Virus genome (UHGV): UHGV-1619847
Direction: 5' to 3' (one strand)
Origin: a virus
Length of the DNA stretch: 11,386 nt
In this document: positions 266 to 9,435 of the stretch, piece after piece
How positions within the stretch are numbered: the stretch's first letter is position 1
Layout: every line of letters starts with the position of its first letter
Notes under the pieces: generated by a model
What the model saw: the letters and a program-made list of their open reading frames with translations, nothing else
Database searches by the model: none
Told to the model about the DNA's origin: nothing
Program-made: the position numbers and the translations under genes

Positions 266-292
266 AGCCTCGTATTCGCGGGGCTTTTTATT
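266..292 (+). terminator. Putative rho-independent terminator for rightward transcription
   Basis: Stem AGCCTCG / CGGGGCT (7 bp including one G.U pair) around loop TATTCG at 266-285, followed directly by TTTTATT (286-292). Hand-folded, not computed. Confidence 0.45.
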
Positions 293-2218: not shown

Positions 2219-5899
<3,681 letters not shown>

Positions 5900-5919
<20 letters not shown>

Positions 5920-7219
5920 TCTCCCGCATATTGCCAGCATGGCCTTTAATGAGCCGCTGATGCTTGAACCCGCCTATGCGCGGGTTTTCTTTTGTGCGCT
6001 TGCAGGCCAGCTTGGGATCAGCCGCCTGACGGATGCGGTGTCCGGCGACAGCCTGACTGCCCAGGAGGCACTCGCGACGCTGGCATTATCCGGTGATGAT
6101 GACGGACCACGACAGGCCCGCAGTTATCAGGTCATGAACGGCATCGCCGTGCTGCCGGTGTCCGGCACGCTGGTCAGCCGGACGCGGGCGCTGCAGCCGT
6201 ATTCGGGGATGACCGGTTACAACGGCATTATCGCCCGTCTGCAACAGGCTGCCAGCGATCCGATGGTGGACGGCATTCTGCTCGATATGGACACGCCCGG
6301 CGGGATGGTGGCGGGGGCATTTGACTGCGCTGACATCATCGCCCGTGTGCGTGACATAAAGCCGGTATGGGCGCTGGCCAATGACATGAACTGCAGCGCA
6401 GGTCAGCTGCTTGCCAGTGCCGCCTCCCGGCGTCTGGTCACGCAGACCGCCCGGACAGGCTCCATCGGCGTCATGATGGCTCACAGTAATTACGGTGCTG
6501 CGCTGGAGAAACAGGGCGTGGAAATCACGCTGATTTACAGCGGCAGCCATAAGGTGGATGGCAACCCCTACAGCCATCTACCGGATGATGTCCGGGAAAC
6601 ACTGCAGTCCCGGATGGATGCAACCCGCCGGATGTTTGCACAGAAGGTGTCGGCATATACCGGCCTGTCCGTGCAGGCTGTGCTGGATACCGAGGCTGCA
6701 GTGTACAGCGGTCAGGAGGCCATTGATGCCGGACTGGCTGATGAACTTGTTAACAGTACCGATGCGATCACCATCATGCGTGATGCACTGGATGCACGTA
6801 AATCCCGTCTCTCAGGAGGGCGAATGACCAAAGAGACTCAATCAACAACTGTTTCAGCCACTGCTTCGCAGGCTGACGTTACTGGCGTGGTGCCAGCGAT
6901 GGAGGGCGAAAACGCCAGCGCGGCGCAGCCGGACGTGAACGCGCAGATCAACGCTGCGGTTGCGGCAGAAAACAGCCGCATTATGGGGATCCTCAACTGT
7001 GAGGAGGCTCACGGACGCGAAGAACAGGCCCGCGTGCTGGCAGAAACCCCCGGTATGACCGTGGAAACGGCCCGCCGCATTCTGGCCGCAGCACCACAGA
7101 GTGCACAGGCGCGCAGTGATACTGCGCTGGATCGTCTGATGCAGGGGGCACCGGCACCGCTGGCTGCAGGTAACCCGGCATCTGATGCCGTTAACGATTT
7201 GCTGAACACACCAGTGTAA
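5900..7219 (+). CDS. C: Head maturation protease gpC (S49-type prohead protease)
   Basis: GTG start at 5900 gives MTAELRNLPHIASMAFNEPLMLEP..., the lambda gpC N-terminus, and 439 aa, the lambda gpC length. The ORF-track start at 5765 would add 45 residues lying wholly inside B. AGGAGGAGAAGAG precedes the GTG. Confidence 0.88.
6614..7219 (+). CDS. nu3: Scaffolding protein gpNu3, in-frame nested within the 3' third of C
   Basis: In-frame ATG at 6614 (ATG GAT GCA = MDATRRMFAQKV...) gives 201 aa sharing the C stop, the same nested arrangement and length as lambda nu3. Start assigned by homology of arrangement; the RBS is weak. Confidence 0.6.
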   Translation: MDATRRMFAQKVSAYTGLSVQAVLDTEAAVYSGQEAIDAGLADELVNSTDAITIMRDALDARKSRLSGGRMTKETQSTTVSATASQADVTGVVPAMEGENASAAQPDVNAQINAAVAAENSRIMGILNCEEAHGREEQARVLAETPGMTVETARRILAAAPQSAQARSDTALDRLMQGAPAPLAAGNPASDAVNDLLNTPV

Positions 7220-7228
7220 GGGATGTTT

Positions 7229-7561
7229 ATGACGAGCAAAGAAACCTTTACCCATTACCAGCCGCTGGGCAACAGTGACCCGGCTCATACCGCAACCGCG
7301 CCCGGCGGATTGAGTGCGAAAGCGCCTGCAATGACCCCGCTGATGCTGGACACATCCACCCGTAAGCTGGTTGCGTGGGATGGCACCACCGACGGTGCTG
7401 CCGTTGGCATTCTTGCGGTTGCTGCTGACCAGACCAGCACCACGCTGACGTTCTACAAGTCCGGCACGTTCCGTTATGAGGATGTGCTCTGGCCGGAGGC
7501 TGCCAGCGACGAGACGAAAAAACGGACCGCGTTTGCCGGAACGGCAATCAGCATCGTTTAA
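7229..7561 (+). CDS. D: Head decoration protein gpD
   Basis: 110-aa product [52 protein letters not shown]... matches lambda gpD. The ORF-track start at 7223 (MFMTSKE) is 2 codons upstream; 7229 gives the lambda N-terminus. Confidence 0.9.
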
Positions 7562-7581
7562 CTTTACCCTTCATCACTAAA

Positions 7582-7603
7582 GGCCGCCTGTGCGGCTTTT
7601 TTT
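7582..7603 (+). terminator. Intrinsic-terminator-like hairpin between D and E
   Basis: GGCCGC-CTGT-GCGGCT stem-loop (6 bp, one G.U; flanking AA/TT could extend it) followed by a 7-T run (7597-7603), 20 nt after the D stop and 14 nt before the E start. Confidence 0.45.
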
Positions 7604-7616
7604 ACGGGATTTTTTT

Positions 7617-8642
7617 ATGTCGATGTACACAACCGCCCAGCTGCTGGCGGCAAATGAGCAGAAATTTAAGTTTGATCCGCTGTTTCTGCGTCTCTTTTTC
7701 CGTGAGAGCTATCCCTTCACCACGGAGAAAGTCTATCTCTCACAAATTCCGGGACTGGTAAACATGGCGCTGTACGTTTCGCCGATTGTTTCCGGTGAGG
7801 TTATCCGTTCCCGTGGCGGCTCCACCTCTGAATTTACGCCGGGATATGTCAAGCCGAAGCATGAAGTGAATCCGCAGATGACCCTGCGTCGCCTGCCGGA
7901 TGAAGATCCGCAGAATCTGGCGGACCCGGCTTACCGCCGCCGTCGCATCATCATGCAGAACATGCGTGACGAAGAGCTGGCCATTGCTCAGGTCGAAGAG
8001 ATGCAGGCAGTTTCTGCCGTGCTTAAGGGCAAATACACCATGACCGGTGAAGCCTTTGATCCGGTTGAGGTGGATATGGGCCGCAGTGCGGCGAACAACA
8101 TCACACAGTCCGGCGACACGGAGTGGAGCAAGCGTGACAAGTCCACGTATGACCCGACCGACGATATCGAAGCCTACGCGCTGAACGCCAGCGGCGTGGT
8201 GAATATCATCGTGTTTGATCCGAAAGGCTGGGCGCTGTTCCGTTCCTTCAAAGCCGTCAGGGAGAAGCTGGATACCCGTCGCGGCTCTCATTCCGAGCTG
8301 GAGACAGCGGTGAAAGACCTGGGCAAAGCGGTGTCCTATAAGGGAATGTATGGCGATGTGGCCATCGTCGTGTATTCCGGACAGTACGTGGAAAACGGCG
8401 TCAAAAAGAACTTCCTGCCGGACAACACGATGGTGCTGGGTAACACTCATGCACGCGGTCTGCGCACCTATGGCTGCATTCAGGATGCGGATGCACAGCG
8501 CGAAGGCATTAACGCCTCTGCCCGTTACCCGAAAAACTGGGTGACCACCGGCGATCCGGCGCGTGAGTTCACCATGATTCAGTCAGCACCGCTGATGCTG
8601 CTGGCTGACCCTGATGAGTTCGTGTCCGTACAACTGGCGTAA
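7617..8642 (+). CDS. E: Major capsid protein gpE (HK97-fold)
   Basis: 341-aa product MSMYTTAQLLAANEQKFKFDPLFLRLFFRESYPFTTEKVYLSQIPGLVNMALYVSPIVSGEVIRSRGG... matches lambda gpE. The ORF-track start at 7590 lies inside the upstream hairpin and is rejected. Confidence 0.93.
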   Translation: MSMYTTAQLLAANEQKFKFDPLFLRLFFRESYPFTTEKVYLSQIPGLVNMALYVSPIVSGEVIRSRGGSTSEFTPGYVKPKHEVNPQMTLRRLPDEDPQNLADPAYRRRRIIMQNMRDEELAIAQVEEMQAVSAVLKGKYTMTGEAFDPVEVDMGRSAANNITQSGDTEWSKRDKSTYDPTDDIEAYALNASGVVNIIVFDPKGWALFRSFKAVREKLDTRRGSHSELETAVKDLGKAVSYKGMYGDVAIVVYSGQYVENGVKKNFLPDNTMVLGNTHARGLRTYGCIQDADAQREGINASARYPKNWVTTGDPAREFTMIQSAPLMLLADPDEFVSVQLA

Positions 8643-8645
8643 TCG

Positions 8646-8672
8646 TGGCCCTTCGGGGCCATTTTCTCTCTG
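8646..8672 (+). other. Stem-loop with UUCG tetraloop and U-rich tail between E and FI
   Basis: TGGCCC-TTCG-GGGCCA (6-bp GC-rich stem, UUCG loop) at 8646-8661, followed by TTTTCTCTCTG, then the FI RBS GGAGGAG (8674-8680) and ATG at 8684. Confidence 0.45.
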
Positions 8673-8683
8673 TGGAGGAGTTC

Positions 8684-9070
8684 ATGACGAAAGATGAACT
8701 GATTGCCCGTCTTCAGGAGCTGGGTGAGCAACTGAACCGTGATGTCAGCCTGACGGGAACGAAAGAAGAACTGGCGCTCCGTGTGGCAGAGCTGGAAGAG
8801 GAGCTTGATGACACTGCCGATCAGGATACCCCTATCAGCCCGGAAAATGCGCTGACCGGACATGAAAATGAGGTTGTATCAGCGCAGCCGGATACCGTGA
8901 CTGATACGGCTGATCTGGTCACGGTTGTGGCACTGGTGACGCTGCATACTGATGCACTTCACGCCACGCGGGATGACACTGTGGCATTTGTGCTGCCGGG
9001 AACGGCGTTCCGTGTCTCTGCCGGTGTGGCAGCTGAAATGACAGAGCGCGGCCTGGCCAGAATGCAATAA
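8684..9070 (+). CDS. FI: DNA-packaging/head assembly protein gpFI
   Basis: MTKDELIARLQELGEQLNRDVSLTGTKEELALRVAELEEELDD... with RBS GGAGGAG 4 nt upstream. 128 aa, four codons shorter than my recollection of lambda gpFI (132 aa). Confidence 0.88.
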   Translation: MTKDELIARLQELGEQLNRDVSLTGTKEELALRVAELEEELDDTADQDTPISPENALTGHENEVVSAQPDTVTDTADLVTVVALVTLHTDALHATRDDTVAFVLPGTAFRVSAGVAAEMTERGLARMQ

Positions 9071-9081
9071 CGGGAGGCGCT

Positions 9082-9435
9082 GTGGCTGATTTCGATAACC
9101 TGTTCGATGCTGCCATTGCCCGCGCCGATGAAACGATACGCGGGTACATGGGAACGTCAGCCACCATGACATCCGGTGAGCAGTCCGGCGCAGTAATACG
9201 TGGTGTTTTTGATGACCCTGAAAATATCAGCTATGCCGGACAGGGCGTGCGCGTTGAAGGCTCCAGCCCGTCCCTGTTTGTCCGGACTGATGATGTGCGG
9301 CAACTGCGGCGTGGAGACACGCTGACCATCGGTGAGGAAAACTTCTGGATAGACCGGGTTTCGCCGGATGATGGTGGAAGCTGTCATCTCTGGCTTGGGC
9401 GGGGCGTACCGCCTGCCGTTAACCGTCGCCGCTGA
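9082..9435 (+). CDS. FII: Head-tail connector protein gpFII
   Basis: GTG start at 9082 preceded by GGGAGG. 117-aa product MADFDNLFDAAIARADETIRGYMGTSATMTSGEQSGAVIRGVFDDPENISYAGQG... matches lambda gpFII. Confidence 0.9.
   Translation: MADFDNLFDAAIARADETIRGYMGTSATMTSGEQSGAVIRGVFDDPENISYAGQGVRVEGSSPSLFVRTDDVRQLRRGDTLTIGEENFWIDRVSPDDGGSCHLWLGRGVPPAVNRRR

What the first reader, a model, noticed from the sequence alone, without database searches (positions are those of the whole stretch)
7582..7603. Terminator-like hairpin plus U7 tract inside the late operon between D and E
Seen in sequence: a canonical intrinsic-terminator architecture immediately upstream of the major capsid gene. Established knowledge: lambda late transcription is Q-antiterminated and reads through terminators. 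Inference: the element may act as an RNA-stabilising or processing structure, or as a conditional terminator that matters when transcription is not Q-modified (e.g. in a lysogen), limiting read-through into E.
Basis: partly seen in the sequence, partly recalled or inferred. Interest (0 to 1): 0.4.

Follow-up and report, generated by a model that had tools for sequence, protein, structure and literature searches.

The report
Conserved terminator hairpin before lambda capsid gene
The hairpin plus run of seven T's between the lambda head genes D and E is a real, conserved, textbook-shaped transcription terminator that other phage records already annotate, so it is ordinary, although its exact job inside the late operon has never been tested.

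Summary
Window 7579-7603 (lambda about 6097-6121) holds a GC-rich hairpin, AAAGGCCGC-CUGU-GCGGCUUU, ending in a T7 run. It lies 18 nt after the D stop codon and 13 nt before the E start codon. It is far stronger than chance. Across 90 non-identical D-E junctions (E homologues from 100% to about 25% identity), 69 carry a hairpin plus T-tract in the 110 nt before the capsid gene. The background rate is about 0.03 per 110 nt. Stems covary or are replaced outright, loops vary freely, every wobble is G·U on the + strand, and the T-tract is almost always on the 3' side.

The element is not new. It is in the lambda reference sequence and is annotated as a rho-independent terminator in HK629, 434, HK225, mEp237 and N15. 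A second conserved hairpin follows E.

My best reading is a genuine intrinsic terminator that stops RNA polymerase not modified by Q. Q-modified polymerase should read through it, and the hairpin may then also stabilise the upstream D message. No experiment on it was found, and the competing roles (insulator, partial terminator, RNA stabiliser) cannot be separated by computation. Novelty: already known. Interest: low.

The parts
7229..7561 (+). Gene D (head decoration protein). Its stop codon is 18 nt upstream of the hairpin base.
   Evidence: Pfam HDPD, E = 4e-22. The lambda J02459 annotation is D 5747-6079, and the window is offset by +1482. The mechanical ORF starts at 7223.
7579..7600 (+). 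RNA hairpin. Five G-C pairs join 7583-7587 to 7592-7596, G7582 pairs with U7597, an A-U extension joins 7579-7581 to 7598-7600, and the tetraloop CUGU is at 7588-7591.
   Evidence: Minimum free energy -12.2 kcal/mol, z = -3.5; core -9.3 kcal/mol. 94.6% of cells are paired across 41 distinct relatives, with 5 pairs changed on both sides.
7597..7603 (+). Uninterrupted T7 (U7) tract directly 3' of the GC stem.
   Evidence: Sequence. Among the 69 junctions with a terminator-like element the T run is 7 nt in 35, 6 nt in 13 and 5 nt in 12. The mean is 6.6 T in the 8 nt 3' of the core, against 3.5 A in the 8 nt 5' of it.
7606..7619 (+). Translation initiation region of E: Shine-Dalgarno GGGA (7606-7609), U7 spacer (7610-7616) and ATG (7617-7619).
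   Evidence: Sequence. ACGGGA is conserved in lambda-like and N15-like relatives, whereas the spacer changes to AAAAATCT. The median distance from core stem to start codon is 21 nt.
7617..8642 (+). Gene E (major capsid protein).
   Evidence: Pfam Phage_cap_E, E = 3e-71. Relatives are 98-100% identical in IMG/VR.
8646..8671 (+). Second hairpin, 3 nt after the E stop codon: GGCCC-UUCG-GGGCC with flanking pairs, followed by the U-rich tail AUUUUCUCUC. Together with the D-E element it brackets E.
   Evidence: dG -12.6, 6 T in 8. It is conserved in relatives and passes my U-tract criterion at 36 of 90 junctions. N15, HK225 and phi80 annotate a terminator downstream of the capsid gene.

Best explanation
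The element is a genuine intrinsic (Rho-independent) terminator built into the D-E spacer of lambda-type head operons.

On the rightward late transcript, the GC hairpin forms just as the polymerase transcribes the U7 tract. Ordinary, non-antiterminated RNA polymerase should then release there. Any transcription entering from spurious or upstream promoters without Q would be stopped before the very efficiently translated capsid gene E.

During lytic growth, Q-modified polymerase reads through, probably with a small terminated fraction. In both terminated and processed transcripts the hairpin sits at the 3' end of the D message. There it should also block 3'-to-5' exonucleases.

Shown here: the anatomy, the strand polarity, and selection on the hairpin together with its U-tract. 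Inferred: actual termination, read-through by Q-modified polymerase at this particular site, and the fitness benefit.
For: 1. Canonical anatomy: a 5-6 bp GC stem, a tetraloop and U7, lying 18 nt past the D stop codon and therefore outside a terminating ribosome's footprint.

2. Strong elements of this kind are rare by chance: 0.02 expected per shuffled window.

3. Positional conservation. 69 of 90 distinct junctions between an HDPD-family gene and an E-family gene carry a hairpin plus at least 5 T in 8. E identities run from 100% to about 32% in this group. Elsewhere on the + strand of the same loci the rate is 0.03 per 110 nt.

4. Unrelated stems occupy the same place, each followed by a T-tract of its own (uninterrupted runs of 5-7 T except L128 and L169, where the run is broken): GCCAC/GTGGC in L131, CCCTGA/TCAGGG in L139/L162, CCCGC/GCGGG in L161, GAGCC/GGCTC in L187-190, CCACAG/CTGTGG in L192.

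5. Loops vary freely while stems stay paired. All wobbles are G·U as read on the + strand. No locus failed the detector because of an A·C mismatch.

6. Polarity: 69 junctions qualify on the + strand, 11 on both strands, 2 on the - strand only.

7. In L146 the hairpin plus U7 sits 50 nt from the start codon, so the U-tract belongs to the hairpin rather than to the ribosome binding site.

8. Independent annotators labelled the same element a rho-independent terminator in HK629, 434, HK225, mEp237 and N15.

9. Literature. Terminators inside late operons are common in lambdoid phages; the proposed roles are partial termination or stopping transcription that lacks antitermination (PMC8022706). A terminator serves as an insulator in the antitermination-controlled element Tn916 (PMC11658703 abstract). 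Terminators raise upstream mRNA stability (PMC11696848 abstract).
Against: No transcript 3'-end, in vitro termination or mutational data for this site were found in the searchable literature.

The stem is short (5 G-C pairs plus one G·U; core -9.3 kcal/mol), so efficiency could be modest.

By my recollection of Sampson et al. 1988 (not retrievable here), late genes are transcribed about equally and translation initiation sets their ratios. That leaves little room for substantial termination during lytic growth.

It is unclear what unmodified transcription would ever reach this site in a lysogen, because tR' and more than 7 kb lie between pR' and D.

Some relatives keep a hairpin but lack a U-tract (L125, L126, L165 and the high-GC group L209-215). 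Two lack any hairpin (L129, L150).
Confidence: 0.5

Rival explanations
1. The element is only an mRNA stability or processing structure. The hairpin is a barrier to 3'-to-5' exonucleases (PNPase, RNase II) after RNase E cuts in the U-rich spacer. This would give the D segment, and with the post-E hairpin the E segment, longer half-lives than the rest of the roughly 26 kb late transcript. Termination itself would be irrelevant.
For: Two conserved hairpins bracket E, the most abundant virion protein. The one after E has an extra-stable UUCG tetraloop and only a weak U-tract, which looks more like a stabiliser than a terminator. Several relatives keep the D-E hairpin without a U-tract (L125, L126, L165, L209-215). 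The U-rich single strand after the hairpin resembles an RNase E target (established knowledge). Terminator hairpins are reported to raise upstream mRNA stability (PMC11696848 abstract).
Against: A pure exonuclease barrier needs no U-tract. Yet independent stem lineages almost all retain 5-7 T's directly 3' of the stem, with strong 3' polarity. L146 keeps U7 although the element is far from the ribosome binding site.
Confidence: 0.25
2. The element is a translation-initiation aid for E. The hairpin insulates the E ribosome binding site from upstream RNA, and the U-rich stretches serve as a landing site for ribosomal protein S1 or a standby ribosome, giving E its very high translation rate.
For: The spacing is tight: the median distance from core stem to E start codon is 21 nt, range 18-50. 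The sequence from the U-tract to the Shine-Dalgarno is conserved as TTTTTTTACGGGA. A second U7 run, or an A-rich run in other phages, lies between the Shine-Dalgarno and the ATG.
Against: Disrupting the stem in silico does not change the predicted accessibility of positions -15 to +5 of E (mean unpaired probability 0.52 native against 0.50 mutant over 13 diverse loci). In L146 the element lies 50 nt from the start codon. The tight spacing may simply reflect a compact spacer.
Confidence: 0.1
3. The hairpin plus U7 is the 3' end of an Hfq-binding small RNA cut from the end of the D message. The precedent is the lambda sRNA PreS/LPR1, whose 3' end is the terminator tL2a inside the N-antiterminated early-left operon.
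For: A GC hairpin plus a poly-U tail is the standard Hfq-binding 3' module. PreS shows that a terminator inside an antiterminated lambda operon can define an sRNA (bioRxiv 10.1101/2024.10.31.621285).
Against: That RIL-seq study names only three lambda sRNAs (LPR1/PreS, LPR2 and 6S), none of them at D-E. Text searches of its truncated tables found nothing for D or E. No Rfam family matches above threshold; the isrK hit has E = 5.4 and the Leu_leader hit E = 5.6, which is only generic terminator resemblance.
Confidence: 0.05
4. The spacer holds an internal promoter for E, as annotated in the phi80 record FN582354 (-35, -10 and a transcription start site overlapping the hairpin). Alternatively the inverted repeat acts at the DNA level, for example as a recombination joint between gene modules.
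For: The phi80 record carries these features. Promoter-terminator coupling has been reported as common in bacteria (bioRxiv 10.64898/2026.08.19.745784 abstract).
Against: The sigma-70 consensus scan finds nothing in the D-E spacer of this window. The phi80 -35 and -10 sequences lie in the part of the spacer that is not conserved in lambda. The G·U-only wobbles and the 3' T-tract polarity point to a + strand RNA rather than a DNA cruciform.
Confidence: 0.04

Closest known systems
Predicted rho-independent terminators already annotated at the same position in lambdoid and N15-like phages (HK629, 434, HK225, mEp237; N15 stem_loop 5980-6004)
   Same: The position is the same, between the head decoration gene and the major capsid gene. 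The GCCGC/GCGGC stem, the tetraloop and the T7 run are the same or nearly identical. N15 and HK225 also annotate the partner hairpin after the capsid gene.
   Different: Nothing material. The window copy carries the same hairpin and T-tract as the lambda-type records fetched, HK629 (L003) and lambda J02459 (L004). J02459 itself carries no feature there. All these annotations are computational, not experimental.
Terminators inside the late operon of P22-like phages (phage L, P22)
   Same: These are intrinsic-terminator-like hairpins inside a single, antitermination-driven late operon, placed at the edge of the procapsid gene module. The hypotheses on offer are the same: partial termination, or a stop to non-antiterminated transcription (PMC8022706).
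   Different: The head genes are unrelated (P22-type coat protein, no D homologue upstream). There the terminator follows the procapsid module rather than preceding the capsid gene. The roles are likewise stated as unknown.
T7 T-phi terminator after the major capsid gene 10 (from my own knowledge)
   Same: It is a partly efficient terminator hairpin at the border of the most highly expressed capsid gene. It shapes message abundance and stabilises the 3' end.
   Different: It acts on T7 RNA polymerase rather than the host polymerase, involves no antiterminator protein, and lies downstream of the capsid gene. It therefore corresponds to the post-E hairpin, not to the D-E element.
Lambda tL2a / PreS (LPR1)
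   Same: It is a GC hairpin plus poly-U inside an antiterminated lambda operon whose terminated or processed product is stable.
   Different: It lies in the early-left operon under N rather than Q, and an Hfq-bound sRNA has been demonstrated for it. No such RNA is reported for D-E.

Membership tests
Intrinsic (Rho-independent) terminator | A GC-rich stem-loop that is stable as RNA on the transcribed strand | tested here: met
   Five G-C pairs plus one G·U and a tetraloop. The energy is -9.3 kcal/mol for the core and -12.2 kcal/mol with the A-U extension, z = -3.5. D and E are both on the + strand.
Intrinsic (Rho-independent) terminator | A U-rich tract of about 7-9 nt immediately 3' of the stem | tested here: met
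   An uninterrupted T7 run at 7597-7603. The feature is conserved, with a mean of 6.6 T in 8 over 69 junctions.
Intrinsic (Rho-independent) terminator | Placement beyond the stop codon, so a terminating ribosome does not prevent folding | tested here: met
   The D stop codon ends at 7561 and the hairpin 5' arm starts at 7579-7582, a gap of 17-20 nt. The ribosome footprint size is taken from established knowledge.
Intrinsic (Rho-independent) terminator | Evolutionary maintenance of the pairing and of the 3' U-tract polarity | tested here: met
   69 of 90 junctions against 0.03 expected. 94.6% of cells are paired, 5 pairs changed on both sides, and 0 of 500 shuffles reached the observed values (that alignment was chosen for having hairpins, so it leans towards the structure). 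Polarity is 69 on the + strand against 2 on the - strand only.
Intrinsic (Rho-independent) terminator | Actual release of RNA polymerase, with transcript 3' ends in the U-tract | not testable with these tools
   No Term-seq, S1 mapping or in vitro data were found for this site.
Terminator overridden by lambda Q antitermination | Read-through by Q-modified RNA polymerase, with termination of unmodified polymerase | not testable with these tools
   The site lies within the late operon, downstream of pR'/qut, by lambda synteny. Terminator resistance of Q-modified polymerase is established knowledge (PMC7547250 abstract). It has not been measured at this site.
Intercistronic mRNA-stabilising hairpin (3' exonuclease barrier) | A stable hairpin at the 3' side of the protected cistron | tested here: met
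   There is a hairpin after D and another after E.
Intercistronic mRNA-stabilising hairpin (3' exonuclease barrier) | Higher abundance or longer half-life of the upstream segment that depends on the hairpin | not testable with these tools
   This needs RNA decay measurements. The lambda RNA-seq paper of Liu et al. 2013 is not held.
Hfq-dependent 3'-derived sRNA | A terminator hairpin plus a poly-U tail | tested here: met
Hfq-dependent 3'-derived sRNA | A discrete small transcript enriched on Hfq | tested here: inconclusive
   The lambda RIL-seq study reports only LPR1/PreS, LPR2 and 6S. Its tables are truncated and returned no D or E entries. No Rfam family matches above threshold.

The most novel reading that the evidence does not exclude
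The D-E terminator and the post-E hairpin may together form a conserved 'capsid cassette'. It would turn the long late transcript into discrete, long-lived D and E messages. It might also release an Hfq-binding small RNA from the end of D, as terminator tL2a does for the lambda sRNA PreS. The terminator would then be a productive RNA 3'-end-forming signal during lytic growth, not merely a safety stop. The near-invariance of the GCCGC/GCGGC stem from E. coli lambda to Pseudomonas-type prophages (about 40% capsid identity) could also hint at recognition by a conserved factor.
Probability: 0.08. Interest if true: 0.55.

Novelty: already known. Interest (0 to 1): 0.22.

Why it matters
Lambda's late operon is the textbook case of one promoter, one antiterminator and one 26 kb transcript. 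The protein ratios are said to be set by translation.

Conserved terminators inside such operons, here bracketing the capsid gene across very distant relatives, are a small unresolved point. They could be safety stops against unlicensed transcription, fine-tuners of message dosage, or RNA stabilisers.

This D-E junction segment is present in 3200 of 5426 complete E. coli genomes. The element is therefore common, and a simple mutational test in lambda would settle its role. As it stands, the finding re-describes a known, already annotated sequence feature.

Tried and rejected
1. Rfam search of the whole window at E up to 10. Only sub-threshold hits overlap the site (Leu_leader E = 5.6, isrK E = 5.4). 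These reflect generic terminator shape, so I rejected them as family membership.

2. The tool's own terminator scan missed the site, probably because greedy stem extension uses up the T-tract (my inference). I replaced it with a custom detector and shuffle controls.

3. Ribosome-binding-site insulation. Partition-function accessibility of the E initiation region, native against stem-disrupted, showed no consistent difference in 13 loci.

4. Promoter reading from the phi80 record. There is no sigma-70-like match in the spacer.

5. sRNA reading. The text and supplementary tables of the lambda RIL-seq preprint gave no D or E entries, and the tables are truncated.

6. Literature. Eight full-text searches found no experimental work on the lambda D-E terminator. 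Liu et al. 2013 and Sampson et al. 1988 are not held.

7. The first viral-contig scan with lambda E returned only relatives of 98% identity or more. The scan with the L161 capsid protein found nothing. Diversity came from the genome-contig scan and from the scans seeded with L139 and L154.

8. The covariation count on alignment A2 is partly circular, because the sequences were chosen for having a hairpin. I therefore rest the case on positional enrichment and polarity instead.

Full report
WHAT IS THERE

The window is the left arm of a lambda-type prophage or phage. The 578 bases around the site are 99.3% identical to lambda J02459 positions 5741-6318, so window coordinates equal lambda coordinates plus 1482. 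The flanking genes are the head decoration gene D (Pfam HDPD, E = 4e-22; about 7229-7561) and the major capsid gene E (Phage_cap_E, E = 3e-71; 7617-8642).

The 55-nt spacer reads CUUUACCCUUCAUCACUAAAGGCCGCCUGUGCGGCUUUUUUUACGGGAUUUUUUU, followed by the E AUG. Its parts are:
- Five G-C pairs between 7583-7587 and 7592-7596, closing a CUGU tetraloop at 7588-7591.
- A G7582·U7597 wobble, and three A-U pairs that can extend the stem (7579-7581 with 7598-7600).
- An uninterrupted T7 run at 7597-7603.
- The E Shine-Dalgarno GGGA at 7606-7609, then a second T7 run at 7610-7616, then the ATG.

IS IT MORE THAN CHANCE?

The 31-nt segment folds to -12.2 kcal/mol (z = -3.5; 1 of 200 shuffles does as well). 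The same hairpin dominates the fold of the whole spacer. The core alone is -9.3 kcal/mol.

The built-in consensus scan did not list the site, probably because it extends the stem through the A-U pairs and so uses up the T-tract (my inference). That loose scan was also not enriched overall (16 found against 10.8 +/- 3.4 expected).

My own detector requires:
- a perfect stem of at least 5 pairs with at least 3 G-C pairs;
- a loop of 3-8 nt;
- base pairs whose 3' base is T counted as tail rather than stem;
- at least 5 T in the next 8 nt.

It finds 9 sites on the + strand of the window, against 3.8 +/- 1.9 in dinucleotide shuffles. Only three are strong (at least 7 T in 8 and dG of -11 or lower), against 0.02 expected. 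They are at 267-284, at 5969-5984 inside gene C, and at the D-E site. A fourth site at 8646-8661, directly after E, is nearly as strong.

COMPARATIVE EVIDENCE

I collected loci encoding E homologues from annotated phage records, IMG/VR and one genome per GTDB species. After removing duplicates there were 90 distinct junctions upstream of an E homologue, with E identity running from 100% to about 25%. The upstream gene is an HDPD-family decoration gene even in the 32-45% identity group.

- A terminator-like element lies in the 110 nt before the capsid start codon at 69 of 90 junctions. Elsewhere in the same loci the rate is 0.03 per 110 nt on the + strand and 0.05 on the - strand.
- The loop is 4 nt in 56 of 69.
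- The T run is 7 nt in 35, 6 nt in 13 and 5 nt in 12.
- The core stem ends a median of 21 nt (range 18-50) before the start codon.

From lambda to Pseudomonas-type prophages (about 40% E identity) the GCCGC/GCGGC core is nearly invariant, while the loop is essentially random: CUGU, CAGC, UUAU, AAAA, GCAA, UACA and others. Other lineages carry unrelated stems at the same place, each followed by its own T-tract, which is interrupted in L169:
- GCCAC/GUGGC in L131
- CCCUGA/UCAGGG in L139/L162
- CCCGC/GCGGG in L161
- GAGCC/GGCUC in L187-190
- CCACAG/CUGUGG in L192
- GACCGC/GCGGUC in L169

On a 41-sequence alignment:
- 94.6% of cells are paired.
- Five pairs show changes on both sides.
- No shuffle out of 500 reaches the observed covariation.
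- The slid controls drop to 35-69% paired.

That alignment was chosen for having hairpins, so I treat it as descriptive. The non-circular evidence is the positional enrichment.

Three further points bear on what kind of element it is.
- All wobble variants are G·U as read on the + strand. No locus failed the detector because of an A·C mismatch. This points to an RNA structure on the late-transcript strand.
- The element is polar: 69 junctions qualify on the + strand, 11 on both strands, 2 on the - strand only. There are 6.6 T in the 8 nt 3' of the core against 3.5 A in the 8 nt 5' of it.
- Among near-identical lambda-type copies, the substitutions seen fall in the loop (three different ones), in the T-run length, and once in the stem as a pairing-preserving C-to-U change (L044).

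The exceptions are informative.
- L125, L126 and L165 have a hairpin without a clean U-tract.
- A high-GC group (L209-215) has long GC hairpins without one.
- L129 and L150, with spacers of only 13-26 nt, have no hairpin.

A SECOND ELEMENT

Three bases after the E stop codon lies GGCCC-UUCG-GGGCC, followed by AUUUUCUCUC (8646-8671). It is conserved in lambda-like and N15-like relatives, and diverged phages carry other hairpins at that position. It meets my U-tract criterion at only 36 of 90 junctions. E is thus bracketed by two hairpins: the upstream one is terminator-like, and the downstream one looks more like a stabiliser.

WHAT IS ALREADY KNOWN

The element is not new. The hairpin and T-tract are identical in the lambda reference record J02459 fetched here, although that record carries no feature there. 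GenBank records annotate the same site as a rho-independent terminator:
- HK629 (5911-5931)
- 434
- HK225
- mEp237
- N15 (a stem_loop at 5980-6004 labelled 'putative rho-indep. transcription terminator', plus a second one after the capsid gene)

One phi80 record instead annotates a -35, a -10 and a transcription start site over it. The sigma-70 scan finds nothing there in this window.

Eight full-text searches found no experimental data on the lambda D-E site. Two papers likely to bear on it are not held: Liu et al. 2013 (ribosome profiling and RNA-seq of lambda induction) and Sampson et al. 1988.

HOW IT MOST LIKELY WORKS

The hairpin is conserved together with an immediately adjacent, 3'-polar U-tract, including in lineages that have replaced the stem and in L146, where the element is 50 nt from the start codon. 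That is the signature of an intrinsic terminator rather than of a bare stabilising hairpin. I therefore favour the following account, with confidence 0.5.
- It is a real terminator for unmodified host RNA polymerase.
- Q-modified polymerase bypasses it during lytic growth. This rests on established knowledge of Q, not on a test at this site.
- The hairpin additionally protects the 3' end of D-containing RNA.

The anatomy, polarity and selection are shown. Termination, read-through and the selective benefit are inferred.

Rivals:
- A stability or processing element only (0.25). The stabiliser-like partner after E and the relatives without a U-tract support it. The conserved U-tract argues against it.
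- An aid to E translation (0.10). The tight spacing and the conserved U-tract-to-Shine-Dalgarno block support it. Disrupting the stem in silico leaves predicted ribosome-binding-site accessibility unchanged (0.52 against 0.50 over 13 loci).
- The 3' end of an Hfq-binding sRNA (0.05). The precedent is lambda PreS, whose 3' end is terminator tL2a. The RIL-seq study does not name such an RNA at D-E, and no Rfam family matches.
- A promoter or a DNA-level element (0.04).

VERDICT

The feature is already known and annotated, so novelty is 'already known' and interest is low (0.22).

The modest added value here is the finding that the D-[terminator]-E arrangement persists across very distant lambda-type head modules, with stem turnover and strict polarity. 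The segment occurs in 3200 of 5426 complete E. coli genomes.

The decisive experiments are simple:
- In vitro transcription with and without Q.
- 3'-end mapping in induced, uninduced and Q-minus lysogens.
- Three classes of spacer mutant: disrupted stem, compensated stem, and hairpin kept with U7 replaced.

Noticed in passing
window 8646-8671: A second conserved hairpin lies 3 nt after the E stop codon (GGCCC-UUCG-GGGCC, a UUCG tetraloop, dG -12.6) with a weaker U-rich tail. With the D-E element it brackets the capsid gene. N15, HK225 and phi80 annotate a terminator downstream of the capsid gene.
   Followed up: partly
window 5966-5987: A strong terminator-like hairpin lies inside the coding sequence of gene C (GAACCCGC-CUAUGC-GCGGGUU followed by UUCUUUU, dG -12.0), 47 nt after the stop codon of the portal gene B. 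It is identical or nearly so in N15, phi80, HK225 and Perceval. It lies in conserved protein-coding sequence, so the conservation may be due to the protein.
   Followed up: partly
window 267-284 (+) and 324-305 (-): A convergent pair of strong terminator-like hairpins lies near the start of the window, upstream of the cos/Nu1 region (dG -11.5 and -16.5). It looks like the boundary between two oppositely transcribed units.
   Followed up: no
loci L089-L104, L106, L121, L124, L127, L132, L135-L144 and others: Short, low-coverage contigs 96-100% identical to lambda E turn up in genome assemblies of unrelated organisms. Examples are Chromatium, Neobacillus, Kitasatospora, Paenibacillus, Bradyrhizobium, an Akkermansia MAG, Corynebacterium and Prevotella. 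This is almost certainly lambda DNA contamination or spike-in rather than real prophages.
   Followed up: no
L002 1822-1856 (phi80 FN582354 6101-6135): This phi80 record annotates a -35 signal, a -10 signal and a transcription start site overlapping the same hairpin that other records call a terminator. The consensus scan gives no promoter-like match in the window's spacer.
   Followed up: partly
window 7610-7616: A second T7 run fills the space between the E Shine-Dalgarno and the ATG in lambda-type copies. The Erwinia locus L119 has the same T7 run and L131 a T6 run. In N15-like and Kluyvera-like relatives it is replaced by AAAAATCT, so only A/U richness is conserved there.
   Followed up: no
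window 7530-7680: This D-E junction segment is present in 3200 of 5426 complete E. coli genomes, with up to 5 copies per genome. 22 of the 4533 matching places are on plasmids.
   Followed up: no
window 8684-9070: The FI gene after E appears to end at 9070, giving about 128 aa, whereas the lambda coordinates would predict an end at 9082. The window therefore carries an FI variant and is not lambda itself, although D-E is 99.3% identical to lambda.
   Followed up: no
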